Of a stretch of DNA of 63,570 nt, positions 689 through 35,000 are shown piece after piece. Source of the stretch: a virus (lineage: Duplodnaviria > Caudoviricetes); the IMG/VR virus record IMGVR_UViG_3300031997_000009, positions 1-63,570 of that record. One strand, 5' to 3'. Every line of letters starts with the position of its first letter. Position 1 is the first letter of the stretch. The notes beneath the pieces were generated by a model that was not told where the DNA came from, did not search any database, and saw only the letters and a program-made list of their open reading frames with translations. The position numbers and the translations under genes are program-made.

Positions 689-790
689 ATGTTTCTCAAA
701 TCCAAGGAAAACCCGCGCTCCTGGGCGAACAGGAAGCGCGATGACAGCAAGACGTACGAGTCACGGCCGGTGAACTGGATCGGCAAGTAG
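689..790 (+). CDS. small hypothetical protein (33 aa)
   Basis: CCGGAGG RBS; MFLKSKENPRSW...WIGK. Confidence 0.5.
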   Translation: MFLKSKENPRSWANRKRDDSKTYESRPVNWIGK

Positions 791-929
791 GCCAGCAAAG
801 GCCGCACACGGACGGCCATAAGGGGTATGCTTCCGCGCACCCCATCCGCGTCAGCCCCATGTGCAGGCGTCCACGCCGCGGGGCCGGATAACCAACCAAC
901 TGCACCAACCTTTACACAGGAGGGCTCAC

Positions 930-21658: not shown

Positions 21659-21961
21659 TTAGGCCAAATCGTTTGCCGACATATATTCTCGGCTCAATAG
21701 CTTATCGTGGTGTTTTTTGTCCAGGAATTTTCTATCCGCATCGCATGGAATTGGTAGAGCTTGAACCTGCCCTCCAGGATTAATACCCAGGCGGTGTGTT
21801 TTTTGGAGAGCATGGGAAAGGCCTAAGGCCTCCGTAATAATAACCCCGCGGAACCCATCTTCTGCGGCAAAAGAAAGCCACCAGAGCTCCGACTTCCCAG
21901 CCTCAACTTCTTCTGAAAGTCGCTCACCGATTCTTTGCTGGACTTGAGATTCGCTTAACAT
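21659..21961 (-). CDS. hypothetical protein
   Basis: WWLSFA...FRGV...LGINPGGQV conserved-looking pattern. Confidence 0.65.
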   Translation of the reverse strand: MLSESQVQQRIGERLSEEVEAGKSELWWLSFAAEDGFRGVIITEALGLSHALQKTHRLGINPGGQVQALPIPCDADRKFLDKKHHDKLLSREYMSANDLA

Positions 21962-22146
21962 CTTTTCTCCTTTTCCCGGTCTTGTTTAATAAGATCTTCC
22001 AGTGCTTCCATAAGAGAGACAGGGCGTTGCAAGCCTATCGACATAAACCCAGCCCAAACCAGTGCCTTGCGCCCAGCCAACTCCCTGCGCGTCCACTCTT
22101 CCCCGCTCTCTTTCAGGTATTGCCATTTGTACTCCATCGAATTCAT
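21955..22146 (-). CDS. hypothetical protein
   Basis: GGAGA RBS before MNSMEY. Confidence 0.55.
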   Translation of the reverse strand: MNSMEYKWQYLKESGEEWTRRELAGRKALVWAGFMSIGLQRPVSLMEALEDLIKQDREKEKRC

Positions 22147-22182
22147 CTTTTCTCCCGAACGCTTGCGTGCGTTCCGTCTTCC

Positions 22183-22318
22183 GCGAAACGGATGGCGCAA
22201 TGCACGCCGTTAAATTTTATCATAGCTACAGTTAGGACACATTTCCTGCAACACAATAGGCACAACCATCTTGTCACAGTTGGGACACTTTTTTAATGGC
22301 TTGCTTGCGCTGTTGTCC
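22183..22318. repeat. attC-like site E0 (136 nt)
   Basis: GCGAAAC ggatg GCGCAA-t-GCA-c-GCCGTTAAA ... TTTAATGGC-t-TGC-TTGCGC t GTTGTCC. Confidence 0.75.
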
Positions 22319-22428
22319 GATGGGGGCGCGGGCCGATATGATGGGCAATTAGGAGGGCAAAGCCCGTTTTCCATAATCGTATGGTTATGATATTCTACAT
22401 CAAAAACACTGGAAGCATATTCTGTCAT
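22210..22428 (-). CDS. cassette C1 protein with C-terminal zinc ribbon
   Basis: AAGGAG RBS; CPNC...CPNC encoded inside E0. Confidence 0.6.
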   Translation of the reverse strand: MTEYASSVFDVEYHNHTIMENGLCPPNCPSYRPAPPSDNSASKPLKKCPNCDKMVVPIVLQEMCPNCSYDKI

Positions 22429-22446
22429 TTTCTTCGCGCTCCTTTC

Positions 22447-22586
22447 GGACAACGGTCAAGGCACCGGCCCGACCGACTATTATTTTATATTGTCGGGGCG
22501 GATGGGGCGAAGTGCGCCAACTCCCACTGCTCTTTACATTCGGGACATAAGTATGTGGGCGCATTTTGCCCTGCTTGTTGTTGTAC
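22447..22586. repeat. attC-like site E1 (140 nt, branched)
   Basis: GGACAAC...GTTGTAC with internal stems CCGGCCCGAC/GTCGGGGCGG and GGGCGAAGTGCGCC/GGCGCATTTTGCCC. Confidence 0.8.
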
Positions 22587-22805
22587 GCTGGATTTTGCGA
22601 TGCCTTGCGCCGCCTCTTTGTGTTCCGGTATTTCGGGGTGACGGATAAGCATATCAGATTGTAGTGCAGCATTCCAAGCGCATTCCGCTAAATCCTCTTT
22701 GGATATTTCAGTGAGCCTATTTTTGTTTTGAAAAGTAGCCACCCACCAATCCGAAAACGACAATCCTTTGCGAAACAGAAGATCGTTTATGTCTCTTTGG
22801 TCCAT
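22485..22805 (-). CDS. cassette C2 hypothetical protein
   Basis: AAGGAGA RBS; FSDWW...AECAWNAA; stop lies inside E1. Confidence 0.65.
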   Translation of the reverse strand: MDQRDINDLLFRKGLSFSDWWVATFQNKNRLTEISKEDLAECAWNAALQSDMLIRHPEIPEHKEAAQGIAKSSVQQQAGQNAPTYLCPECKEQWELAHFAPSAPTI

Positions 22806-22854
22806 CTTTTCTCCTTGCCTTGCGGCGCTGATTTATTTCCTCGCAAAATCTTGC

Positions 22855-22928
22855 GTACAACGGTTGCGAATGGCCGCAGTAAACATCAAGCCTCCGCCTC
22901 GTTTATTGCGGCCTTCGCGTTGTTGCAT
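22855..22928. repeat. attC-like site E2 (74 nt)
   Basis: GTACAAC ggtt GCGAA-t-GGCCGCAGTAAAC ... GTTTATTGCGGCC-TTCGC gtt GTTGCAT, one bulged base. Confidence 0.88.
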
Positions 22929-23290
22929 GGGGCATCTTCGCCCGTACCGTTTGCCCGCTCCCCGCCCACGGATGGGCGGTCTTCGATGTGTTCACGCACT
23001 CCGTCTTTATCGGGCGGACCCCATGTTCTTTTTTCGTTGCCCGCCATTTTCTTTTCCGCTTCCAAGATAAGCGAGAAATTGTTTTTGTGGGCGAGGTGGT
23101 AAAGCAAAAGCAAGCAGTCCGCAGACTCTTCGGCAATGTCCGCGTGTTCGTTGGACTCAATAGCGGAATCGAGTTCCGCGACTTCCTTTTTAAGATGTGC
23201 TACGATTGATTTGCTCGTAGCCCCAGGAAAGGTAGAGTAGGCCCACATTCCAACATAAACCTGAAGCGTATTTACCGTTATGTCTTTCAT
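22886..23290 (-). CDS. cassette C3: MazG-like/DUF550 dNTP pyrophosphohydrolase
   Basis: WAYSTFP...HLKKEVAEL...EESADCLLL...KMAGNEKRTW; start at MKDITV after AGAAAGGA. Confidence 0.8.
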   Translation of the reverse strand: MKDITVNTLQVYVGMWAYSTFPGATSKSIVAHLKKEVAELDSAIESNEHADIAEESADCLLLLYHLAHKNNFSLILEAEKKMAGNEKRTWGPPDKDGVREHIEDRPSVGGERANGTGEDAPCNNAKAAINEAEA

Positions 23291-23341
23291 TCTTTCCTTT
23301 CTTGCGGCCCCGGATGGGCCGCTGTCTTGCGGGCAAATGGT

Positions 23342-23434
23342 ATGCAACGCCCGTTGCTTGCCGAAGTTTGCGTACTCGCAAATTTGGGAGAGCGCCGGAA
23401 ACCCCGGCGCGAACCGGCAAGCAATTTGTTGCAT
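23342..23434. repeat. attC-like site E3 (93 nt)
   Basis: ATGCAAC gcccg TTGCTTGCCG ... CGGCAAGCAA ttt GTTGCAT with two internal hairpins. Confidence 0.88.
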
Positions 23435-23458
23435 GAAGTAAAACCCCGCCGTTTTTCA

Positions 23459-23782
23459 TTATTCTGATGCCTCGATAATGTCCGCTGCCGCCCGTAATGC
23501 TTTTGATTTCAATCTTAGGTAGCTCACATACGCACCAAGGCATGACCCTGCCGCACCGATAATCAGGGCGCACATCAGCAGCACGATGGAAAGATTTGGT
23601 ACCGTGATTGATATCGTTGACATTTAGTCCGCCTCCCTTTTAATTTTGTCGAGTTGCTGCGCCGTGTATGGCTTGTTCTCTTCCGTGATAACGCCGCCCA
23701 GCGTGGCAACATCCTTGATAACGGCAACCGGAAGCATGGCCGTGTTGACCGCAGTTCTGATTAAGGCTCCGAATAATCCCAT
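23459..23782 (-). CDS. cassette C4: two small hydrophobic proteins (23624-23782, 52 aa; 23459-23623, 54 aa)
   Basis: translated by hand: MGLFGALIRTAVNTAMLPVAVIKDVATLGG... and MSTISITVPNLSIVLLMCALIIG...; both have an RBS. Confidence 0.65.
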
Positions 23783-23841
23783 GTTTTTCCTTTCTTGCGG
23801 CCTTGGCCGCTCCCGCTTCGCCTTCGGCGGGGTTTTATTTT

Positions 23842-23925
23842 ATGCAACGGGAAGCTATGCCGAAGCCGCGTCAGCGGTTTGCGGTGCGGGACTTGTTCCC
23901 GCGCCCGGCATAGCGTTTGTTGCCT
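23842..23925. repeat. attC-like site E4 (84 nt)
   Basis: ATGCAAC gggaa GCTATGCCG ... CGGCATAGC gttt GTTGCCT. Confidence 0.88.
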
Positions 23926-24427
23926 GCTGTGTTTCGGCGCGGTCTTCTGTCTTTATGAATGCGACCCAATGAGTCTTTTGCTGCTTTCCGCTTTTGTGCC
24001 CGAAAAGCGGCCGGTAGGGCGTGAGCGCCAGAATACGCGAAACCGGAATTTCATCGGCACACCACTTGAAAACAAGGACGCCATTATCTTTAAGAACGCG
24101 GAACGCTTCGGCAAACCCAGCGCGGAGCATCTCGCTCCAGTCTCCTTTAAGAGTACCGTACTTTAACCCCACCCATCCGGTAGCACCATTGCGCTCAAAA
24201 TGTGGCGGGTCGAAAACGACCAAGGAGAAGGAGCCGCTTTCAAAAGGCAGGGCCGTAAAGTCGCATTGATAATCGGGGTCGATGACAAGCTCACGGCTCC
24301 CTCCAGTGCTGGAAATGTCAGGAAGTGTGCGCCGCTCTTTGCGCTGGTCCACAAAAACGGCCCGCTGGTCATTCTTGTCAAACCAGAACATCTTGCTTCC
24401 GCAGCACATATCCAGGACTGGCTTCAT
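23855..24427 (-). CDS. cassette C5: SAM-dependent amino-type DNA methyltransferase
   Basis: VLDMCCGSKMFWFDK (motif I), VVFDPPH (motif IV), FRVLK..G.LVFKW; start at MKPVLD. Confidence 0.85.
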   Translation of the reverse strand: MKPVLDMCCGSKMFWFDKNDQRAVFVDQRKERRTLPDISSTGGSRELVIDPDYQCDFTALPFESGSFSLVVFDPPHFERNGATGWVGLKYGTLKGDWSEMLRAGFAEAFRVLKDNGVLVFKWCADEIPVSRILALTPYRPLFGHKSGKQQKTHWVAFIKTEDRAETQQATNAMPGAGTSPAPQTADAASA

Positions 24428-24483
24428 TCTTTTTCTCCAGCGGGCTTGCCCCGCGTTAATTGTCTTCCGCGCCGAAACATTGC

Positions 24484-24673
24484 CGGCAACGTCCGACCCA
24501 TTAAGCAGTTGGTTGTTTCTGCTCATCACATTTAATCAACCGATTGAGGCGGTCGATTCCGGCATTCAAAAAGCCACGCGCCTTTTCAATATTTCCACTA
24601 TTCAAACAAGCACCAGCCATGTCAAATTGAACCTTGGCGTCTTCGACCGCCGCCTTAATGGGGCTTGTTGTGC
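24484..24673. repeat. attC-like site E5 (190 nt, branched)
   Basis: CGGCAAC gtccga CCCATTAAG ... CTTAATGGG gctt GTTGTGC; internal stems CAGTTGGTTG/CAACCGATTG and GGCGGTCGA/TCGACCGCC. Confidence 0.8.
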
Positions 24674-24842
24674 GAAGTGACGCGCCTGCCTTTAATTCTT
24701 CAAGTTCGCTAAATGTTTTTGCCAAATCGTTCAGGACTGTGTAAACATCGGGGGGATACATTGTGTCCTTACCAAACGGCAGATAATGATAACGAGCCTG
24801 GAAGCGTTTAGCAAACAGCTCAAAACTTTCATTTGCATTCAT
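24501..24842 (-). CDS. cassette C6 hypothetical protein
   Basis: AAGGAGA RBS before MNANESF; about half of the ORF lies inside E5. Confidence 0.65.
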   Translation of the reverse strand: MNANESFELFAKRFQARYHYLPFGKDTMYPPDVYTVLNDLAKTFSELEELKAGASLRTTSPIKAAVEDAKVQFDMAGACLNSGNIEKARGFLNAGIDRLNRLIKCDEQKQPTA

Positions 24843-24874
24843 TGCTTTTTCTCCTTGTCTTGGCGCGGCATTTT

Positions 24875-25000
24875 GTACAACGGATTGCCCCACTTTGGGA
24901 CGCATCCACAAATATTATTTTTCGTCCCGAAGAATGGGCGAAGCGTTCCGCTTCTTCAAATCAATTTTTGCGGAACGTTTTGCCCTGGGGCTTGTTAGGT
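24875..25000. repeat. attC-like site E6 (126 nt, branched)
   Basis: GTACAAC ggatt GCCCCA ... TGGGGC tt GTTAGGT; internal stems CTTTGGGACG/CGTCCCGAAG and GGGCGAAGCGTTCCGC/GCGGAACGTTTTGCCC. Confidence 0.85.
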
Positions 25001-25355
25001 GCTGTTTTACAAATTCGTTTAACAGGTAATACGCCTTGTCCACGCAACAGCACATCCCCTCTTTTTCATCAATATCTTTTTCGAGCAGGTCTTCAAAAAG
25101 CGGGAAGCCTTTTAGAACGCGAAATAACTCATTGTCAACTTGCTTGCCAGTCTTTGTTTCGATAACGTGGCAGGCGTCTAAAACAATCGACATTATTTGA
25201 TGTTCGACATCACGTAGCAGCCCAGTAAAGCTGACGCCATCAGTTTTGCGAAACATATTCTGGTAGCTCTCGCTTTTTTCGCGTTCTATTCTTCCCGCCT
25301 CAAATAGACCTGTGAGAACTTCTTTGATTGCTGTTGCAGTCACTTTCTCTACCAT
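24915..25355 (-). CDS. cassette C7 hypothetical protein
   Basis: GAAAGGA RBS; 146-aa ORF with stop inside E6. Confidence 0.7.
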   Translation of the reverse strand: MVEKVTATAIKEVLTGLFEAGRIEREKSESYQNMFRKTDGVSFTGLLRDVEHQIMSIVLDACHVIETKTGKQVDNELFRVLKGFPLFEDLLEKDIDEKEGMCCCVDKAYYLLNEFVKQHLTSPRAKRSAKIDLKKRNASPILRDEK

Positions 25356-25393
25356 AATTCTACCGTCCTTTCAGACAACACTTGTAAAATTGC

Positions 25394-25471
25394 ACCTAAC
25401 GCTATGCCGAAGGGCGAAGCGGATTATTCAAAATACATCCTTTAATCCGTTTTGCCCTGGCGCTGTTGTAC
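25394..25471. repeat. attC-like site E7 (78 nt)
   Basis: ACCTAAC gctat GCC-ga-AGGGCGAAGCGGATTA ... TAATCCGTTTTGCCCT-GGC gct GTTGTAC. Confidence 0.85.
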
Positions 25472-25741
25472 GCAAAACCGGCGATGATTTTGATTGCGCC
25501 GATTCAATTAGCCCCTCTGTTTCAATTCTGTCTCTTAAATAACAGAACTCTCTATTTGTCATATCCAAAACCACTCTGACCATATTAGTATGTTCGCTTA
25601 CCCCACCTTTCGTTCTAAACCTATCATGCTTTACTATTTTCATTTCCATTTCCCACAACAAAGACAGCGCATTCTTTCAACCGGGAATGTAAATCGTGGC
25701 CACGAATGACCAAATATTTTACAGAATAATCTTTTAATCAT
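25428..25741 (-). CDS. cassette C8: two small proteins (25640-25741, 33 aa, CxxFGH...CxxC DUF1660-like; 25428-25643, 71 aa)
   Basis: translated by hand: MIKRLFCKIFGHSW...RCLCCGKWK, ATGA overlap to MKIVKHD... Confidence 0.6.
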
Positions 25742-25787
25742 GTCTTTCCTTTCTTATCGGCGCTCTTGGCTATTTCGCCGGTTTTGC

Positions 25788-25854
25788 GTACAACTACCAC
25801 TATGATGCAATAACATTCACCCTATGCTCTGATTTTGCACGTAAGACGAAGCTG
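25788..25854 (-). other. attI-like entry site (or decayed attC)
   Basis: minus strand TTGCATCATAGTGGTAG|TTGTAC: core GTT present, but no matching AAC arm and only a weak stem upstream. Confidence 0.5.
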
Positions 25855-26772
25855 CTACACGGATTCTATTGCGAACCTGAACGTGCCCCTGCTGTCGGGC
25901 TTGCCCTCGATCTTGTACTTGCCGATAAGGATTTTCAACGACTGCCCCTTGGCTGTGGCCACGACGCGATTGCGAATGACCTCGTAGATATCGTCGCACT
26001 CTTTCGCGTCAGACTTCATGGACAGGTACTTGTCGATCCTGTGCTCAAACTCTGGATCGTCGGCAATCTTCATCTCCGTACCGAAGTTCATGCCAGGGGC
26101 GCATACGGTCTTCATCGGACAATCCTTGCACACCTCCACGTCCTTGATGCGCTCGGGCAGGGTGCCGGCCTTCACATGGGTGTTGATGGTCTCGCAAGCC
26201 TTGATACAGGACTCGGCGAGGGCATAATCGAGCTTAACATCCACGGTCTTGATCGCGCCCGTGCTCTTGTTTTTGAGGATGAAAATGCCGTGATCGACGT
26301 TTTTGCCGAGGAGGTAGATCTGGATCTGCGCGAGGTAGGCGCGCGTCCATGGCTTTTTGTTGAAGTCGTCCAGGCACTTGATCATGTCGTAGATGTGCGG
26401 CGCCATGCTCTTGATTTCAATCGGAACCGCCACGCCATCGTCCACGATCACGCCGTCGAGATGCCATGTGATGTTGTACTTCTCCCACTCGCCCACGCTC
26501 TGCTGTTCGATCACGGTTATGCCTGCGTCCTCGAGCATACGCAGAACCGCCTTCTCCTCGCGGTTGCCCTCGTCGTAGATCATCTGCAGGCGCGTGTCCG
26601 GAAGTTCCTTCTCCTGCCAGCGCGTGCGCTCGAGCGCACCCCGGCGTAGACAGCCGTTGAGTTCTGGAACATAATGACCCACGCTCGACGCGCGATTGCT
26701 CTTGCAGGGGATACGCTTGATACGGGTCTGGACGTTCTTTTCGACCGCCTCCACGATATTTATCATTGTCAC
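25855..26772 (-). CDS. Cas4-like PD-(D/E)xK exonuclease
   Basis: RASS...CLR, HLDG, IEIKS, QIQIY, CKDCPMKTVC (1+3 Cys Fe-S pattern). Confidence 0.85.
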   Translation of the reverse strand: MTMINIVEAVEKNVQTRIKRIPCKSNRASSVGHYVPELNGCLRRGALERTRWQEKELPDTRLQMIYDEGNREEKAVLRMLEDAGITVIEQQSVGEWEKYNITWHLDGVIVDDGVAVPIEIKSMAPHIYDMIKCLDDFNKKPWTRAYLAQIQIYLLGKNVDHGIFILKNKSTGAIKTVDVKLDYALAESCIKACETINTHVKAGTLPERIKDVEVCKDCPMKTVCAPGMNFGTEMKIADDPEFEHRIDKYLSMKSDAKECDDIYEVIRNRVVATAKGQSLKILIGKYKIEGKPDSRGTFRFAIESV

Positions 26773-26860: not shown

Positions 26861-27808
26861 TTACTGTCCGGGCTCGGGCGGCGGAGGCGCTTCCTCGTTG
26901 CCTTGCGCCTGTTTGCCGAAGAGCTCGTAGTGCTCCTTCTCCACGGCCGGGACGAGATGCTTCATCATGGCCTCGCTCACGTCCTCGATCTTGGTCTTTC
27001 CAGACACCATCTTATTCTCCCTGTTCTTCCACGTAGTCAGGCGCGCAAGGGATTTGGACGCGAGATCGGTATCGCCATCGGCCATTTCCAGTAGCATCTT
27101 CCAGACCTTACTCTTGGCGTCGGCGGTCTGCGGGGCCTCGGTCTTGCCACCCTGCGTGCCCTTGCCGTGACGGACCTGAACGCACAGAGACTGCGTGATC
27201 TTGTTCCCGGTAGCGGCCGCGATCTCATCCCACGAGAAGCTCATGCCCAGAAGGCTTTTGAGTCCGCGGTTAAGCGCGTTCGTAAGCGCCTTCTTCTTGA
27301 TGTCGTTGATGTCGATCTCGGACAGGGGCAGAAAATACTTCTCGCTCTTGTGCGTCTGCGCGTCCCATTTGCTGCGCTGCGCGAAGAACTGATCGTGGGT
27401 GCTGCACGACCCGATTTCTGGCACGCTCCGTCCCGCGTAACGGACGGTAGTTTCGCATTGGATATTAATGAATTCGCCCTTATCGTCCGACACGATCTCC
27501 TGTGTGAACCTGGGCGTGTCGTAGCTGACGCCAAAGGCCGAGGCGATCTTGGCCGTTCCCGTCCACATCAGGTAGGGCTTGCCGTCCTGATCGACAAGGT
27601 CGTGGACGTTAAGCATATTGATACAGGCCTTTCGGATACGGCCCTGCGCCTCCATGTATTTCTCGATACGCTTCGTCTGCGCCTCCACACCCTCAGCGGT
27701 CGAGAGATCGATCTGGGTGTTGTCACGCACCTTAATTTGCGTGCTCTCACGAACATCGACTTCGCCGACGCCAGCGCTCTCGGGATCTTTTGCCTTCTGT
27801 TCAGCCAT
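26861..27808 (-). CDS. putative single-strand annealing/recombination protein
   Basis: adjacent to the exonuclease; KPYL..TG..KIA..F and KKALTNALNR motifs; acidic/Pro-rich tail. Confidence 0.5.
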   Translation of the reverse strand: MAEQKAKDPESAGVGEVDVRESTQIKVRDNTQIDLSTAEGVEAQTKRIEKYMEAQGRIRKACINMLNVHDLVDQDGKPYLMWTGTAKIASAFGVSYDTPRFTQEIVSDDKGEFINIQCETTVRYAGRSVPEIGSCSTHDQFFAQRSKWDAQTHKSEKYFLPLSEIDINDIKKKALTNALNRGLKSLLGMSFSWDEIAAATGNKITQSLCVQVRHGKGTQGGKTEAPQTADAKSKVWKMLLEMADGDTDLASKSLARLTTWKNRENKMVSGKTKIEDVSEAMMKHLVPAVEKEHYELFGKQAQGNEEAPPPPEPGQ

Positions 27809-28067
27809 GACGGCCTCCTTTTGAAAGTGGACGATCAGCATCGGCAGCATCCCACCTGTATTCAATAACAGGTCGGCCAGTTTCCGACGCTCCTTCTTGT
27901 TTCAAAATCTTAAACCTGTTCTTTTTAATGAGCCTAAGGTCGCGCTTGAGGTCGGCCGTACCCGTAAGGGCTACGATCTCGGCCTCGCTGTGCCACATCC
28001 CGTCCGCCAAAAACTCGAGTACGCGCCGGGCCGTTGGAGACGGGTTTGTTCCGCTCATATACATCAC
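27801..28067 (-). CDS. small winged-helix protein
   Basis: RVLEFLADGMWHS...LKRDLRLIKK...IEYR. Confidence 0.6.
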   Translation of the reverse strand: MMYMSGTNPSPTARRVLEFLADGMWHSEAEIVALTGTADLKRDLRLIKKNRFKILKQEGASETGRPVIEYRWDAADADRPLSKGGRHG

Positions 28068-29058: not shown

Positions 29059-32000
29059 TCACTGATTCCTTATGCTAAAAGGCTGTTCGCCTTCACCGGC
29101 CGGCGCGACCTCCGCCTGGGGCGCTTTCTTTTTCGGTATAATTCCCGTGCCGAGCTTGTTCATCTGTGCCGCCCAGGTGTTGAGAAAATCCGTCTGCTGG
29201 GCAATAGTCTTCTGCTCGGTAGCGGTGTCGCCACGCTCGCGTGCGGCCTTGGCAATCTTATTGAGGTTAGACATGGCAGTATTGACGTACCGCGTGAGAT
29301 TGTAGGCCATAATCTCGTTCTGGTTCTGGTCCAGGAAGGCCTTTGCGGCCTCGGTGTCTGATGCCGCCAGATCCGTATATTGCTCCCAATATGCCTGTAG
29401 CTCATCTTTCTTGCGGTAAAACATACCCTTGCTGGCGTTAGGAAGCGGAGCGCCTTTGATTCTGCGCCAGAAGGGGATCTCTCTGGTCGCAGGCAGCTCC
29501 GCGCCCGGGACTCCACGAGCATATTGCGCGGTCTTCCATCCCGAACTCACGCCCTTCATCAGAAAATCTCCAAGGCCACCGACCTGTTGTTTGATGAAGT
29601 AGTCAAACAGCTCGGGCGTAATGTCCACCATTCCAGGCCTGTACTTGCTCCCGCCCGTTATCTGGTTCAGCCTCTCCGCAACCGCTTTTGACTGCGCGCT
29701 CACGCCCTTGAAATACATCTGGCTCTCAGGTTTCCACTTCTCATACATCGCTCGTTCCGGGTACATGGGATTGCCGGCGAAATCGGTATTCAGGCGGTAG
29801 TCTTCGTACCAGCGAATAGCGGTTGGAAACATAGTCTGAGCGACATTACCGGAACCGAGCGGATTGAACGATCCCACGATATTAGAAAGAATGTTGGCGG
29901 TAGCCTGTTCGGGCTTCGTCACGCCCCTGGTCATGGACTCAAAAAGCACGCCCGTGGCATAGAATACGCCGAAGTTGAACGGAAGCGGAATCTTATAATA
30001 GGTTCCGTCGGCCTTGGGGATAATCCAGTTCCGGGTGCGGGTAAAGAGCGGTATCTTCTCGTAGTTCTCGTCACCCATCATCATCCGGCCCCACTCCGCG
30101 AAACCCACGCCCATCGTGCCCAGGCCCACGGTAAAGGCTACGCCCTTCGGCGTTTTGAGGATTTGTAGTGCGCGGCGGTTTCCCTGCATGGCCGCATTCG
30201 CGAACATATACAGAGCGTTGAATGTCGCGCCCCATTCGCCCTTGCGGTTGAAGTTGACGGTGAGATTCTTCGCGACCTGGGCCGCGCGTTCGGGTGAGTA
30301 CCCGTGCTCGCGCATGACCTTGAAACAGGACAAGCGCGTTCCGTTTTCGACCGCGGAGTTCATAACGTCTACAAAGTCTTTGACGCCGAAGACAAACTTC
30401 TTGAGGTTGTTCATGGCGCTCTTATCCATGGAGTTGATTTCGCTTACAAAGCGCTTCTGCACAGACTCGAGATCGTTGAAGTTCACGAACTCGACCGTGC
30501 CCCCGTGCTCGCTGAATTCGCGTGCCCACTTCTGCGCATCCGTGATTCCGGACTCCCCTATCATCTTCAGGATCCACTTTCCCGCCACATCCTTTTCCTT
30601 GAACAGATGTCCGTACATACCCTTCATCATCCTCGGCACGCCAAAGGCTATCTGCGCCGCCATCGCCGCGCTGTGCTCGGACGTGATGTTAATCATAGCC
30701 TCCTGTAAGTCACGCTGGAAGTTGGAGATGATGAATTCGGGACTCCATCGCGTGATCATGCCCGCGAGGAAGCGGTTGTACGCACCCGCGGTCCTGACGA
30801 TTTTAGCGAAAGTGCTGTCGTTCATGGTGCCCATGTTCTTCATCGCGTTCGCCAGCGCGTCGTCGTTTATGCGGATAATATTGTCTTCGCCGTTGACCTT
30901 AACAACCACGACATTGGAGGCGCGCTTCCAGTTCGGGGTGACAATTTCCCAGACCTTGTTGTTGGGGCTTTCCATCACCAGGCCCAGAAAGGCGCGCCCG
31001 ACCTCATTCCTGTGCGCAGTAATGATGTCTTTCTGAATCTGGGTGAGAATGTTGGCGATTATGTTATCGGCATTGGCCATGGTCTCGCGCCCCATCGCCG
31101 TCTTAGGCTTGTAGCTGACGCTAAACCCCTTGGCTCCGCCGATAGGGCGGAACTCGGCTTCGAGATCCTTAATCTGCTCTGCCGTAAGCCCCTTCATTCC
31201 CAGCATCTGCGCGTCCTCGGACTCCTGGAAGCCCTTGAGCGGGACGTAGTTTTTCCATGCCCGGTTCCAGCCTTTGATTGTTTCCGCGCTCACGAGGCCA
31301 TACTTTTGCAGGACGTATTCGTGGTAAGTGTTGATGTTCTTGACCATCTTCTCGATTTTGTACAGCTGCGCGAGCTTCTCCGGATGTACGCTCATTTGTT
31401 TGATTATGGCGTCGGCAATAACATCGAACATACCCGAGGAGGGGTTAAGCTGCTCAATGCCATTGAAGAGAACTTTCTGCGCGAACACAGGGTTAATCTT
31501 GGCGCCACTGGCGTTGCGCTCTTTTGCGTGTCGGGCATAGAGCCAAATCCCGATTTCGCGCACGTTCATGCCCGAATCGTGAATAGCTCTTTCGAGTGGT
31601 AACACGTAGTTGACGCGGAAGGAATCGAGCATGGCCTTGGTCTTGCCGTGCATTATCTCCTGTTTCAGATACGCGTCAAAGGCCTCAGGGATCTTCCGCA
31701 CCTGCTGAATCGCCTTCTGGACAAACCCAAGGCGAGCGAACTCGTCAACAGTCTTGCGCTTAAACCACTCGCGAATGCCCTCGCCCGCGACCGTGAAGGA
31801 CTCGTACGCGCCTTCAGGGCTCATGGGGTCGGCGGGAGGGGGCTTGGGAATTAGGGCGCCGCCGGCAGGAGGCGGGGCCTCCGCACCCTTGCGGCCGTAG
31901 ATATGCTCCTCGGCCCTGCGCACGCGCTCCTGTTCCGGGATCTCCTCGGCAGGCTTCGCCGCCTCATCAATCGGCATGGGCTTTTCTTTCGCGAACAACG

Positions 32001-35000
32001 GCTGTCCCTCATACAAGACCTTATCTCTCATCGCCGGCGTGATGTCGAAAGCGGGCTGGTTTTCATGAACGCCCTTGTCCGCAAAGTCACCCTCCTCGTG
32101 AGCCCTTCCTCGTGCCTCGTAGGGAATGTTTATTTTTCCTACTTTCCCACCGCCGAGCCTTCTTAATATGTCGTCGGCTACCTGGGGAAGCATCTCGTCA
32201 TAGAATCTTATGAACCCCTTGCCGCCTACGGTCAAGCCTTTTCCGGTGATCTCTCCCGACTCCTTTCCCATTATCTCAGCGGCGTTGGCTTTATTGGATA
32301 GGAGTTCGGACAGGGGCTTGCCGATCCATTCGTTATTGCCCGATGAACTGTCCAAAATTTTACCCTCACTATCTACATAAACCCTCACTTCACCTGATCG
32401 CTTGGTGTCGAGAATAACCTTTTTTACCGCGAGCAGTCTCGGATGTTCAATTCCTGGACCTGCTGCCAATGCGTTATCGTACTTCCCCCACCTTACTCCA
32501 TTAAGCACCGATCTCATGCTTTTCGACCATCTCGCCACTTGCTGTATGCCAGTCGTCCACGCAACCCTATCCATCCCCCGTTCCGCCGCATAGCGTATGG
32601 CGCGTTTCAAGGCGAGACCAACCCATGCCTTCGTATTCGTAACAAAGGGGCCGCGAGAAACGCCGGTACTTACCAATTCCCGAAAATGATCCGCGGCATC
32701 AGTTACATCGTTTTGTGCTTGATGATACTCGTTTCTTGCAAGAAATTCCTTTCTCGCATCAGATTTTTCGCCCCGCTTTAGGGCTTCCGAGATGGCGTCC
32801 AGCTCGCGGGCTGCAACAGCAAATCTTTCTTCCGCTCTTTTAAGCGTGGCCTGGGCGGTTTCGATGGCGATCCTGTCGTATTTTCCGCCTTCTTTCCTGT
32901 AGCTCTGTCCCCAATCGCTTTGGATTTCTTCAAGAAACAAAACCTTTTTGCCTTCGGCATCCACGCGCTCGTTGAAGCGTATCCACGCAAGCACATTCTT
33001 AATTTCAGGATAATGCGGGCCAGCGGCCAATTCCGGGCCCGGAAGCGAAATAGCCAGCTCGCCGTAATTTTCTCCGCCGGGAAGGCGCCATAATGGGCTC
33101 ATGTATTGGGGTACTGTTCCAGGGTAGTTTCGTTCTCGAATATAATTGTCAATGGTTTCTTGGGGAAGAATGTCAACCATCCTTCCGTTAAAATTCAGCC
33201 TGAGTTTTGTTGGCTCAAAATCAGACGGCCGTGTCTGCCATAAGTTACCCAGCGGGTCGGTAAAAGACCGTTCTCCATCGGCAGGCCCCTCCCATGGAAT
33301 ATCCATTTTTCTAACGGCGAGCATCGTGGTTTCTTCGGGCTTTGGAACGCCGGGCCCTATTTTGTCTTTGTCGTACTTCCCGTCCAGGTATTCGATTATG
33401 GTATTGCGCTCTACCGGCGCCTCGTCCACAAGCTCAAGAAATTCCTTGATCCCCGACCATTCGATCTCGTCTTGTTTGATGCCGAGCTTGCCCTTGTTAC
33501 TGTCGAGCCATTGGATCCATTGTTTGCCCTTGAGATTGTCGAATCTGGCGGGAGCATTCTCGAATGCGCGCTTGAGAACGGAGTAGAACGTGGGGGCGGT
33601 AGGACCCCCACCTTCGCGAGCGTACCGGGTCGTGGCTTTTTCACGCTCGTTCTTGTTCTTGAGCCGGCCCAGGACATCGCGAATTATGGCATCAATCTCC
33701 TCTGTCCGCGTGTACTCGGTGAGCCCAAAACGCTGCAGCAGGCGCTTAAAGAAGGCGCGGATCATTCCCTTGACCGTGACGTTGGCCTTGGTGTAGCTGC
33801 GGGCGTCGTAGCGTTCGATCTGCTTGGCTATCCACTCGTCCATGAGCACGTCGGGGGTGGCGTCACGGTAGGTATGGAATACCTGCACGCGCTCGATATA
33901 ATCCCGCAACTCCTTGCTCTTGAGCCAATTCTCTTTGTACTTTGATTTCAGTTCTTCCGTTATCCGGTTCAAGGGCGTGTCCTGAAAATACTTGCGGTCT
34001 TCCTCGAACAGGCGCTTGATGACGTCGTGGATCCTGGGGTCGGAACGGATTAAGGGAGAAGCGCCGAAGTGTCCTGCTATTTCATGGACGAGGATGCGCC
34101 GGAGCTCGGATGCGGGCAGGCGCGAACTGATGGTGACACGGGCTCGTCCGTCTGCGCCCATGAAGATTTCGGCCTGGGCGTCAGGTGGAAGACGGCCCTC
34201 GGTATCGAGAACGATATCGAGATTTTCCGGCTTATAGTGCCCGAAGTAGTCTTCGAGAACGGTCGCTGTTACCTTGGATACTATTTCTGGCGCTCGCCCC
34301 ACGGCCGTAGAAGGACGGGGGCGGGGCGCGCCCACTACCAGACGGTTGCGCCTGGACAGACGCCATTGTCCAACATCAGTATTGGGCAAGACCTTCTTCA
34401 GGTCCGCCATCAGCGAGTTCCAATCGTCGGCGCTGACCTCTTCCATGTCGCCGTCGGGGTTGTCCCTCTTCATCTCCGCGCGCCGGCGGGCCGCCTCCTC
34501 GTTTTTGTTCGTAATCTCGCGCCGGGCATCGTCCTCACTCTCCCATTCCAGGTCCTGCTGCTCGTCCCGGAGGCGCTTTACTTCTTTCCTTATCGCGGCT
34601 TCGGTAATTTTCTCTTTTCTGGCCGTAAGCGTGGCACGGGCCCGGGCCTGGAGCTCGGAGTCGGTGACGACGATGTTGTCTGCCCTGATTTTTTCCACTT
34701 CCCTGGCAATGTCGGCCTCGCTGATGCTTTTCTTCTTCGACACCCCGCCCCTGGCCGCGACATCGCGACGCCGAGCCTGAATTTGGTTGCGGGCCATCTG
34801 CTTGAGCTCGTTTTCGTCGGCGACGAAGACCCGGCGCTTGACCTTTTCCGCGGTCATGTAGCCGCCTTCGCCCTCGACGGCTATGCCCACCTGTGTAAAC
34901 ACCTTCTTCTGCGCAAGATAGTCTCGGACTTCGTAAGACTGTCCGGACTTGGTGTAACCGTCGTCGTGAAGCTGCTGCCTGATCCCGTCTACCTTCTGTT

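What the first reader, a model, noticed from the sequence alone, without database searches (positions are those of the whole stretch)
22183..25854. Phage-borne integron-like cassette array: 8 cassettes and 8 attC-like sites, no integrase
Seen: eight imperfect hairpins of 74-190 nt bounded by ...AAC and GTT... (22183-22318, 22447-22586, 22855-22928, 23342-23434, 23842-23925, 24484-24673, 24875-25000, 25394-25471). They alternate strictly with 1-2 small co-oriented ORFs, each with its own RBS. The block is AT-richer than the core genome and lies inside the operon driven from 28306. Established: integron attC sites have R'' (..AAC) and R' (GTT..) boxes, an unpaired spacer and a variable terminal structure, and are recombined by IntI tyrosine recombinases. 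attC clusters without an integrase (CALINs) are known in bacteria but, to my knowledge, rarely reported in phages. Inference: the phage keeps its own cassette platform, which is loaded and shuffled in trans by a host IntI or an unrecognised recombinase, giving a gene-capture and diversification system. This is the best candidate for an undescribed system in the window.
Basis: partly seen in the sequence, partly recalled or inferred. Interest (0 to 1): 0.95.

Follow-up and report, generated by a model that had tools for sequence, protein, structure and literature searches.

The report
Integron-like gene cassette array in phage
A complete sediment phage genome carries eight small swappable gene cassettes bounded by folding DNA sites built like bacterial integron sites, with no recombinase of its own, and related phages use the same kind of array to carry genes that counter bacterial immunity.

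Summary
All eight AAC...GTT sites lie at the stated coordinates. Six fold far better than shuffles (z -4.0 to -6.0); two (22183-22318, 24484-24673) do not.

The sequence after each GTT pairs with the sequence before the AAC at the far end of the same gene module, not with its hairpin partner (73 of 96 positions; 0 of 100,000 permutations reach this). This is the footprint of crossover at a conserved CGTTG core.

The same site logic occurs in 4 of 42 phage loci examined. One is a phage that shares only 24-54% protein identity. A closer relative has no array.

Sediment metagenome contigs show exact loss of cassette 3 (391 nt, between two cores). They also show a back-joint between two cores, and contig ends pile up at cores.

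The sites fold better on the non-coding strand. They share AACA...CGTT and the spacer asymmetry with attC of aadA1.

No tyrosine or serine recombinase or Y1 transposase (HUH type) was found in the phage. The enzyme and the host remain unknown, and I could not run an attC model.

CALINs (attC clusters without an integrase) in phages are already published (Qi et al. 2023). The long cassette-specific outer stems and the conserved leaders make this a new variant. Earlier notes of this scan describe similar arrays in other phages.

The parts
25786..25854 (-). Entry junction. A GTT core (25794-25792 on the minus strand) with no AAC partner, about 60 nt after the stop of the exonuclease gene. The base before GTT is A here, but C at the internal sites.
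   Evidence: The same A|GTT first junction is seen in L007 and L014.
25401..25794 (-). Cassette 1: leader, ORFs 25741-25640 (33 aa, CxxC) and 25649-25428 (73 aa), trailer, and site 25394-25471.
   Evidence: Terminal inverted repeat pairs at 12 of 12 positions beyond the core, 20 nt in all. No family match for the 73-aa ORF. Site z -4.02.
24882..25400 (-). Cassette 2: ORF 25355-24915 (146 aa, unknown) and site 24875-25000.
   Evidence: Inverted repeat 10 of 12. Site z -5.18.
24491..24881 (-). Cassette 3: ORF 24842-24501 (113 aa, unknown). Its C-terminal half lies inside site 24484-24673.
   Evidence: Inverted repeat 8 of 12. A contig of run X11 joins 24486 to 24878 and skips exactly these 391 nt, with 5 nt ambiguous. 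The hairpin is weak, z -1.84.
23849..24490 (-). Cassette 4: DNA methyltransferase ORF 24427-23855 (190 aa) and site 23842-23925.
   Evidence: phrog_954, E 8e-68. Inverted repeat 9 of 12. Site z -5.28. In runs X5 and X9 its leader is joined to the hairpin of site 22447-22586.
23349..23848 (-). Cassette 5: two small ORFs, 23782-23624 (52 aa) and 23623-23459 (54 aa, membrane-like), and site 23342-23434. Carries 'leader A' and 'trailer A'.
   Evidence: Inverted repeat 10 of 12, 24 nt in all. The leader is 96-97% identical to three leaders in L007. Site z -5.96.
22862..23348 (-). Cassette 6: MazG-like pyrophosphohydrolase ORF 23290-22886 (134 aa) and site 22855-22928.
   Evidence: PF04447 at 27.4 bits and PF03819 at 26.5 bits, both above cut-off. 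Only the 7-nt core repeat pairs (5 of 12 beyond the core). Site z -4.00.
22454..22861 (-). Cassette 7: ORF 22805-22485 (106 aa), which runs through its trailer into site 22447-22586.
   Evidence: Inverted repeat 10 of 12, 21-23 nt (I1, 29, 46). Leader 95% and trailer 92% identical to L007 around an unrelated ORF body. Site z -4.30.
22190..22453 (-). Cassette 8: ORF 22428-22210 (72 aa, zinc-ribbon-like), mostly inside site 22183-22318.
   Evidence: Inverted repeat 9 of 12 (I2, 29). The hairpin is no better than shuffles, z -0.49.
21955..22189 (-). Distal end of the array: a GTTTCGCGGAAGAC leader-like remnant and ORF 22146-21955. No trailer was found.
   Evidence: row 'win last'.
25855..26772 (-). 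Flanking Cas4-domain / RecE-like exonuclease gene. It was used to find relatives.
   Evidence: phrog_1990, E 4e-27. 139 homologues.
26861..27865 (-). Conserved partner gene upstream of the exonuclease (334 aa, no family match). Possibly a single-strand annealing protein; that is inference.
   Evidence: No PHROG or Pfam hit. Homologues sit beside the exonuclease in G001 and G002 (41% and 50% identity).

Best explanation
This is an integron-type array of eight mobile gene cassettes in a phage that encodes no recombinase for it, so it resembles a CALIN (a cluster of attC sites lacking an integrase).

In gene orientation each cassette has four parts:
- a leader that starts at a conserved C|GTTG core and carries small hairpins and the ribosome-binding site;
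- one or two ORFs;
- a trailer that ends in ..AAC and is the reverse complement of the start of the leader;
- an imperfect hairpin that ends at the next CGTT.

As a free circle, the trailer, hairpin and leader would form one long folded site. Crossover at the GTT core inserts, excises and reorders cassettes.

Shown: the anatomy, the core-exact breakpoints, and the bias of folding towards the non-coding strand.

Inferred: the sites act as folded single-stranded DNA, as attC sites do. The enzyme would be a site-specific, probably tyrosine-type, recombinase supplied in trans by the host or a co-infecting element. The array serves as a shared pool of accessory, largely anti-defence, genes.
For: 1. 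Cognate pairing. The flank after GTT_i pairs with the flank before AAC_(i+1) at 9, 10, 5, 10, 9, 8, 10 and 12 of 12 positions, against 4, 5, 5, 5, 4, 5, 1 and 4 within a site. The sum is 73 of 96; 0 of 100,000 permutations reach it, and their maximum is 68.
2. The same rule holds for the 11 modules of L007. It is also seen by eye in L008, L014, L097 and L098.
3. Cores. AACA in 18 of 18 sites and CGTT in 17 of 18.
4. Breakpoints between phages. Leaders are 95-97% identical over 63-71 nt and the identity starts at the GTT. Among three pairs of similar hairpins, the upstream trailer type is the same in 2 of 3 and the downstream leader the same in 0 of 3.
5. Natural variants. A contig of run X11 lacks exactly cassette 3: it skips 391 nt between two CAACG cores, with 5 nt ambiguous. 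Contigs of X5 and X9 join 24486 to 22450 ('goes back 2037', again 5 nt ambiguous). Of the 48 listed contig-piece ends, 27 lie within 8 nt of a core, against 7.7% expected.
6. Strand bias. Of the mismatches inside the inverted repeats, 25 are A.C on the coding strand (equal to G.T on the other strand) and 1 is the reverse. The non-coding strand folds better in 14 of 18 sites with DNA parameters and 16 of 18 with RNA parameters. Random segments of the same genome give 125 of 360 and 191 of 360.
7. Patchy distribution. The array is present in the window and in the distant phage G001 (TerL 32%) but absent from the closer phage G002 (TerL 63%).
8. attC of aadA1 in plasmid R100 shares AACA...CGTT and a right spacer longer than the left.
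9. Cargo. A DNA methyltransferase and a MazG-like gene here. In relatives: Tad4, an Acb2/Tad1-like domain and an N6_N4 methylase.
Against: - No recombinase was found. The window has no PF00589, TIGR02249, PF00239 or PF01797 hit. No gene is shared by the window and G001 but missing from G002, apart from cassette genes.
- No bacterial counterpart or host integron was found.
- Only 1 of 8 sites fits GTTRRRY.
- The outer stems of 19-24 nt and the leaders of 45-65 nt have no counterpart in the one classical attC I examined.
- 2 of 8 hairpins fold no better than shuffles.
- The X11 contig also departs from the reference at the AAC side of site 24875-25000, so breakpoints are not confined to the GTT side.
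- Leader and trailer frames are kept around unrelated ORF bodies. A single crossover per site does not explain that.
- The population evidence rests on assembled contigs of four runs, not on raw reads.
Confidence: 0.65

Rival explanations
1. Homologous-recombination shuffling. The conserved leaders and trailers would serve as short homology arms for the phage's own exonuclease and annealing-protein pair, as PeSL repeats do in T4-type phages. The hairpins would be regulatory or structural by-products. This may act alongside the main mechanism rather than instead of it.
For: Leaders and trailers are 92-97% identical between phages whose shared cassette ORF is 72% identical in DNA, or whose ORF bodies are unrelated. 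Contigs replace or delete the ORF body of cassette 7 between 22613 and 22807-22814, and 13-nt direct repeats lie at 22601-22613 and 22816-28. An exonuclease gene and its partner gene lie just upstream. PeSL exchanges create mini-circles (PMC2839356, abstract read).
Against: The cassette-3 deletion and the back-joint share only 5 nt (CAACG) between otherwise unlike flanks. That is too short for homologous exchange. Homologous exchange predicts neither the switch of complementarity exactly at AAC/GTT nor invariant cores in unlike site types. No sigma-70 promoter or terminator lies in the sites on the gene strand: 7 promoter-like hits against 5.8 +/- 2.5 expected, and none in a leader. G002 has the same exonuclease pair but no array.
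Confidence: 0.15
2. RNA-level elements. The hairpins and the leader-trailer pairing would be processing or stabilising structures in a polycistronic early mRNA, like the RNase III sites of T7 (recalled, not read here). The cassette pattern would be incidental.
For: The sites lie between co-transcribed genes. The leaders carry small hairpins just before the ribosome-binding site, with stem variants GCGGG/CCCGC, GCAGG/CCTGC and GCGGC/GCCGC. Leader DNA is more conserved than synonymous sites.
Against: The structures are better on the strand that is not the mRNA: 25 to 1 for mismatch type in the repeats, 14 of 18 and 16 of 18 sites against 35% and 53% in controls. RNA function explains neither exact cassette loss nor the back-joint at the cores, nor the patchy presence of arrays among relatives. 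No Rfam family matches: two sub-threshold hits only.
Confidence: 0.07
3. No dedicated enzyme. Hairpin-prone DNA would cause replication slippage or microhomology-mediated deletion and duplication between the short CAACG repeats at hairpin bases.
For: The joints carry 5-nt microhomology. Strong secondary structure in 6 of 8 sites. No recombinase was found.
Against: Slippage explains loss, but not the acquisition of unrelated cassettes with matched ends, the shared site types in phages with about 30% core identity, or the conservation of AACA/CGTT in 18 of 18 and 17 of 18 sites.
Confidence: 0.08
4. Each GTT...AAC module is a small non-autonomous transposon with terminal inverted repeats, moved by a transposase encoded elsewhere. 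The hairpins would be its preferred targets.
For: Inverted repeats of 7-24 nt bound every module.
Against: No target-site duplications are seen. The repeats differ between modules except for the core, so one transposase would not recognise them all. The module deleted in X11 includes the downstream hairpin, as an integron cassette does. No transposase was found (for Y1; none among the annotated ORFs).
Confidence: 0.05

Closest known systems
Integron gene cassettes and attC sites; CALINs, including those reported in virulent phages (Qi et al. 2023, PMC9892861)
   Same: One-way arrays of promoterless small genes, each followed by an imperfect hairpin bounded by ..AAC and GTT... The start of each cassette is complementary to its own inverse core. 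Breakpoints lie at the GTT core. Folding favours the non-coding (bottom) strand. AACA...CGTT and a longer right spacer are shared with attC of aadA1. No integrase, as in CALINs. Methyltransferases are among the cargo, as Qi et al. report (section 3.4 read).
   Different: The complementarity extends 19-24 nt beyond the core in 7 of 8 cassettes, not 7 nt. Leaders of 45-65 nt with a ribosome-binding site are conserved across phages. Only 1 of 8 sites fits GTTRRRY. Unpaired bases lie mainly on the 5' arm of the bottom strand. Some sites encode half a protein and reach 190 nt. No IntI is known in any partner. It was not tested whether IntegronFinder would call them.
PeSL (promoter-early stem-loop) cassettes of T4-type phages (Arbiol et al. 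2010, PMC2839356; Comeau et al. 2014, PMC4122927)
   Same: Repeated structured motifs flank small accessory genes in a plastic region of a phage genome. They are linked to gain, loss and replacement of genes and to small circles (abstract of PMC2839356 read; PMC4122927 seen in the search listing only).
   Different: PeSLs are a sigma-70 promoter plus a terminator and recombine by homology. Here there is no promoter or terminator on the gene strand, the sites differ in sequence except for a 5-nt core, and the joints share only that core.
Integron-like arrays with a small Xer-like recombinase in Bacteroidota phages
   Same: Hairpin-bounded GTT/AAC cassettes with chain complementarity, coding sequence inside sites, and methyltransferase or anti-defence cargo.
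   Different: Those notes describe a recombinase gene beside the array. None is present here or in the three other array-bearing loci I searched. The only hit is a weak integrase-like gene in G001, which sits in a lysogeny-type module. The GC content is 50-60% and the host is unknown.
Folded single-stranded attP of CTX-type phages used by host XerCD
   Same: A hairpin in single-stranded DNA creates the recombination site, and the enzyme is supplied by the host.
   Different: That system integrates a whole phage at dif. It does not shuffle gene cassettes. No dif-like motif was tested here.

Membership tests
Integron attC site / cassette | Inverse core ..AAC and core GTT.. bounding an imperfect palindrome | tested here: met
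   8 of 8 sites in the window; 18 of 18 AACA and 17 of 18 CGTT with L007 included.
Integron attC site / cassette | Extended consensus RYYYAAC / GTTRRRY (consensus recalled) | tested here: not met
   R' fits GTTRRRY in 1 of 8 sites (GTTAGGT). The others are GTTGTAC, GTTGCAT, GTTGCCG, GTTGTCC and GTTTCGC.
Integron attC site / cassette | The start of a cassette is complementary to the inverse core at its own end (crossover at G|TT) | tested here: met
   The 7-nt core repeat pairs in 8 of 8 cassettes. Longer pairing in 7 of 8. 73 of 96 positions pair; 0 of 100,000 permutations reach this.
Integron attC site / cassette | Folded bottom strand is the active form; unpaired spacer and extrahelical bases | tested here: inconclusive
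   The bottom strand is more stable in 14 of 18 and 16 of 18 sites, against 35% and 53% in controls. The right spacer is longer than the left in 8 of 8 by my reading. The bulges lie mostly on the other arm than in aadA1 attC.
Integron attC site / cassette | Length about 57-141 nt (range recalled) | tested here: inconclusive
   7 of 8 sites are 74-140 nt; one is 190 nt.
Integron attC site / cassette | Score above threshold with the attC covariance model (IntegronFinder or HattCI) | not testable with these tools
   No attC model is held. Rfam has no such family, and the Rfam scan gave only two sub-threshold hits.
Integron attC site / cassette | Recombined by an IntI integrase | not testable with these tools
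   Needs an attC x attI assay.
Complete integron | intI gene, attI and Pc next to the array | tested here: not met
   No TIGR02249 or PF00589 hit in the complete record. The gene upstream of the entry junction is a co-oriented exonuclease gene.
CALIN | Two or more attC sites with no integrase nearby | tested here: inconclusive
   Eight sites and no integrase are shown. Whether they qualify as attC depends on the model score, which I could not compute.
PeSL regulatory cassettes | A sigma-70-like early promoter plus a terminator stem-loop in each repeat | tested here: not met
   7 promoter-like hits against 5.8 +/- 2.5 expected, none in a leader. No terminator-like hit on the gene strand within the array.

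The most novel reading that the evidence does not exclude
Unrelated sediment phages share a communal cassette system that is not run by an integron integrase. The folded sites have cassette-specific 20-24-bp outer stems and a 5-nt core. They would be recombined by a host Xer-type enzyme or a still unrecognised one, possibly on single strands exposed by the phage's own exonuclease. Together with homologous exchange through the conserved leader and trailer frames, this would let phages trade anti-defence genes (methyltransferases, MazG, Tad4, Acb2/Tad1-like) as plug-in units. That would be a phage counterpart of the integron with a different enzyme and site grammar.
Probability: 0.35. Interest if true: 0.85.

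Novelty: new variant of a known kind. Interest (0 to 1): 0.72.

Why it matters
Integrons are seen as bacterial devices, and the one paper I found on phages reports a few short attC clusters in cultured phages. This array differs in three ways. It is a long array in a complete phage genome. Its site types are shared with a phage that has only about 30% identity in core proteins. Cassette loss and rearrangement at the cores can be seen directly in natural populations.

The cargo here and in relatives is of the kind that defeats bacterial immunity. If the mechanism holds, phages keep a tradable library of counter-defence genes, and the unknown recombinase becomes a concrete target to look for.

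The strong nucleotide-level conservation of the leaders (96%, against 72% in a shared ORF) also points to a function that is not yet explained.

Tried and rejected
- **Near-identical phage records:** none.
- **Single-protein search of viral contigs with the exonuclease:** none confirmed.
- **Inner-motif pattern in viral contigs:** 3 hits that did not look like this site family. One (L002) has a GTACAACAAAGCCCC start that I did not follow up.
- **Trailer-A 16-mer in viral contigs:** 33 stretches. Only the 3 from L007's contig are real; I judged the other 30 to be chance from their context.
- **Energy-only hairpin scan (AACA...CGTT plus free energy):** not specific. It gave 50 hits on the gene strand across the window and missed site 22183-22318, so I dropped it.
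- **Inverted-repeat scan, 10 nt with 1 mismatch:** 40 hits against 26-44 in shuffles. It is not specific on its own.
- **Chain scan:** it pointed to L005 and L043, but the position-weight scan did not confirm them.
- **Position-weight scan at strict thresholds:** it missed the arrays of L008 and L014, which were found at looser thresholds and by eye. The control gave 0 and 9 hits on reversed sequence.
- **Exonuclease homologues in bacterial genome bins:** 10 loci in many phyla, with no array and no usable host signal.
- **Leader-A 23-mer in metagenome contigs:** 3 loci, one of them L007's contig again.
- **Integrase-like ORF of G001 as the system's enzyme:** rejected as unsupported. PF00589 scored only 14.6-16.3 bits, below the cut-off. 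There is no PDB sequence match. The single-sequence fold was poor, pLDDT 38.5, so I did no fold search. It sits behind an excisionase-like gene. The window has no homologue.
- **Earlier notes of this scan, looked up by sequence:** nothing.
- **Parts without contig cover** (for example 22992-23339 in X5, 24906-25775 in X9): I do not use these as evidence of absence.
- **Supplementary tables of Qi et al. 2023** (lists of phages and sites): I did not open or ask for them. They may hold related phages.

Full report
**What the window is.** The window is a whole IMG/VR virus record of 63,570 bases that CheckV rates 100% complete. It encodes large and small terminase subunits. From about 28.3 kb down to 11 kb all genes lie on the minus strand.

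**The observation.**
- In gene orientation all eight begin AACA and end CGTT.
- Six fold far better than dinucleotide shuffles as + strand DNA, with z from -4.0 to -6.0.
- Two do not. Site 22183-22318 has z -0.49 and site 24484-24673 has z -1.84. Both contain the C-terminal half of an ORF.
- The sites alternate with one or two small co-oriented ORFs.
- A ninth GTT core at 25792-25794 has no AAC partner. It lies about 60 nt after a Cas4-domain/RecE-like exonuclease gene (phrog_1990) and marks the entry end of the array.

**Anatomy.** The key feature is where complementarity switches.
- On the + strand, the 12 nt beyond each GTT pair with the 12 nt before the next AAC. These are the two ends of the same ORF module. 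The counts are 9, 10, 5, 10, 9, 8, 10 and 12 of 12.
- Within a site, the flanks of the hairpin partners pair at only 4, 5, 5, 5, 4, 5, 1 and 4 of 12.
- The cognate sum is 73 of 96. In 100,000 random assignments the mean was 38.4, the maximum 68, and none reached 73.
- In 7 of 8 cassettes the inverted ends run for 19-24 nt. In cassette 6 only the 7-nt core repeat pairs.

This is the classical footprint of integron cassettes. The part after the crossover point belongs to the following cassette, so a cassette's first bases match its own far end. Each leader continues for 45-65 nt, with small hairpins and a purine-rich stretch before the ATG.

**Strand bias.**
- Of the mismatches inside the inverted ends of 19 modules (8 from the window, 11 from L007), 25 are A.C on the coding strand. 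Those would be G.T wobbles on the other strand. One is the reverse, and 16 are of other kinds. Two L007 modules were out of register in that call and contributed nothing.
- The 18 hairpins fold better on the non-coding strand in 14 of 18 cases with DNA parameters and 16 of 18 with RNA parameters.
- Random segments of the same genome and strand give 125 of 360 and 191 of 360.
- So the structure is selected on the strand that is not the mRNA. In integrons that is the recombining strand.
- By my reading, the unpaired spacer before GTT is longer than the one after AAC in all eight sites.

**Relatives.** The exonuclease has 139 homologues. A profile search found 41 viral loci.
- The closest, L004 (75% identity; record G002), has a single 165-aa ORF where the array would be, and no array anywhere in its 63 kb.
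- L007 (record G001, 61.7 kb) has an array of 11 cassettes with the same rules. Yet it shares only 24-54% protein identity with the window phage: TerL 32% and exonuclease 54%.
- Arrays of the same logic also occur in L008 and L014. That makes 4 of 42 phage loci, counting the window. They also occur in two short metagenome contigs, L097 and L098.
- Between the window and L007, leaders are 95-97% identical over 63-71 nt, and the identity begins at the GTT. A trailer is 92% identical.
- The one shared ORF, a 54-aa membrane-like peptide, is 72% identical in DNA and 93% in protein. Other ORF bodies inside the same leader and trailer frame are unrelated.
- Leader A precedes three different ORFs in L007, a fourth in the window and a fifth in L098. 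In L097 it precedes a homologue of the window's ORF.
- I found three pairs of similar hairpins: window 23342-23434 with L007 13602-13683; L007 12673-12770 with L097; and L007 10534-10609 with L007 14677-14746. The upstream trailer is of the same type in 2 of 3 pairs. The downstream leader is the same in 0 of 3. The hairpin therefore mostly travels with the gene before it, as in an integron cassette, and is joined to varied neighbours at the GTT.

**Natural populations.** Sixteen sediment-metagenome runs hold the stretch. I laid contigs of four of them.
- One contig of X11 joins 24486 to 24878 and skips 391 nt. The two sides share only CAACG. This is exactly cassette 3 in the integron sense: leader, ORF, trailer and hairpin.
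- Contigs of X5 (depth 12.7) and X9 (790 nt long) join 24486 back to 22450, again with 5 ambiguous letters. This puts the hairpin of site 22447-22586 in front of the methyltransferase cassette. It could be a circle of cassettes 4-7, a tandem copy or a reordered array. I cannot tell which.
- Of the 48 contig-piece ends listed inside the array, 27 lie within 8 nt of one of the 17 cores, where 7.7% is expected (binomial P about 4e-18). The ends are not independent, and only 32 of 82 pieces were listed.
- Two results do not fit a single crossover at GTT. The X11 contig also leaves the reference at the AAC side of site 24875-25000. Contigs of three runs replace or delete the ORF body of cassette 7 between 22613 and 22807-22814, near 13-nt direct repeats.
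- All of this rests on assembled contigs, not raw reads.

**The enzyme.**
- The window has no tyrosine recombinase, integron integrase, serine recombinase or Y1 transposase in six frames.
- Of the 26 ORFs I scanned against PHROGs, Pfam or both (20 against both), none is a recombinase.
- No gene is shared by the window and G001 but absent from G002, apart from cassette genes.
- G001 has a weak integrase-like ORF below Pfam's cut-off. It sits behind an excisionase-like gene about 2.5 kb past its array. This looks like a lysogeny module, and the window has no homologue.
- The L008 and L014 fragments have none.
- Bins holding exonuclease homologues span many phyla, so the host is unknown.
- The recombinase must therefore come in trans. 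Its identity is open.

**Comparison with what is known.**
- The attC site of aadA1 in plasmid R100, read here, has AACA...CGTT, a 5-nt left spacer and a 6-nt right spacer, and a slightly more stable bottom strand. It is the only classical attC I examined.
- The differences are the long outer stems, the conserved leaders, the poor fit to GTTRRRY (1 of 8 sites), the position of the bulges, and the coding sequence inside sites.
- Qi et al. 2023 screened 10,705 phage genomes with IntegronFinder and HattCI. They found 17 CALINs, showed IntI1 recombination for 5 of 6 phage attC sites, and noted methyltransferase cargo (PMC9892861; abstract and sections 2.1 and 3.4 read; supplements not opened).
- PeSL cassettes of T4-type phages shuffle genes by homology between promoter-terminator repeats and form mini-circles (PMC2839356, abstract read). 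The sites here lack promoters and terminators on the gene strand.
- Two literature searches found no description of this site type.
- Earlier unchecked notes of this scan describe similar arrays, mostly in Bacteroidota phages and with a Xer-like recombinase. I took these as leads only. I found no such gene here.

**Cargo.** The window's cassettes include a DNA methyltransferase (phrog_954, E 8e-68) and a MazG-like pyrophosphohydrolase. In relatives there is a Tad4 Thoeris inhibitor (37.2 bits, cut-off 25), an Acb2/Tad1 hairpin domain just past the array (28.2 bits, cut-off 27), and an N6_N4 methylase. The remaining ORFs have no match.

**Verdict.** The array is real and its cassettes are mobile units exchanged at a conserved CGTTG core. 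The architecture is that of integron cassettes without an integrase. Membership of the attC family and the identity of the enzyme are not settled. I rate it a new variant of a known kind.

Noticed in passing
L007 14811-15146 and 15733-16053: A cassette in the related phage encodes a Tad4-family Thoeris inhibitor. A gene just past its array carries an Acb2/Tad1 hairpin domain. So the arrays carry anti-defence genes.
   Followed up: partly
window 23780-23850 against 23459-23623, compared with L007: The non-coding leader is 96% identical between two distant phages. The adjacent shared ORF is only 72% identical in DNA but 93% in protein. The leader is therefore constrained at the nucleotide level for an unknown reason.
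   Followed up: partly
window 22601-22613 and 22816-22828: 13-nt direct repeats bracket the ORF body of cassette 7. Contigs of three runs replace or delete that body between these points. This looks like a second kind of exchange inside a cassette.
   Followed up: partly
window 23811-23833 and other leaders, + strand: The small leader hairpins, read on the antisense strand, look like intrinsic terminators: a stem followed by a T run. They could block antisense transcription.
   Followed up: no
L078 1399-2598 (record G001): A 399-aa ORF with a weak integrase-family match and a confidently predicted N-terminal three-strand-plus-helix fold, preceded by an excisionase-like helix-turn-helix gene. 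It is probably a lysogeny module of the related phage and is absent from the window.
   Followed up: partly
window 29059-37368: One ORF of 2,769 aa on the minus strand, with partial homologues in G001 and G002 (33% and 45% identity). Not analysed.
   Followed up: no
window 25640-25741: A 33-aa ORF with a CxxC motif overlaps the start of the next ORF in cassette 1. It is unclear whether these are two genes or a frameshifted one.
   Followed up: no
L002 about 700-900 (minus strand): A viral contig found with the inner-motif pattern has a GTACAACAAAGCCCC stretch resembling the start of sites 24875-25000 and 24484-24673. It may belong to another array.
   Followed up: no
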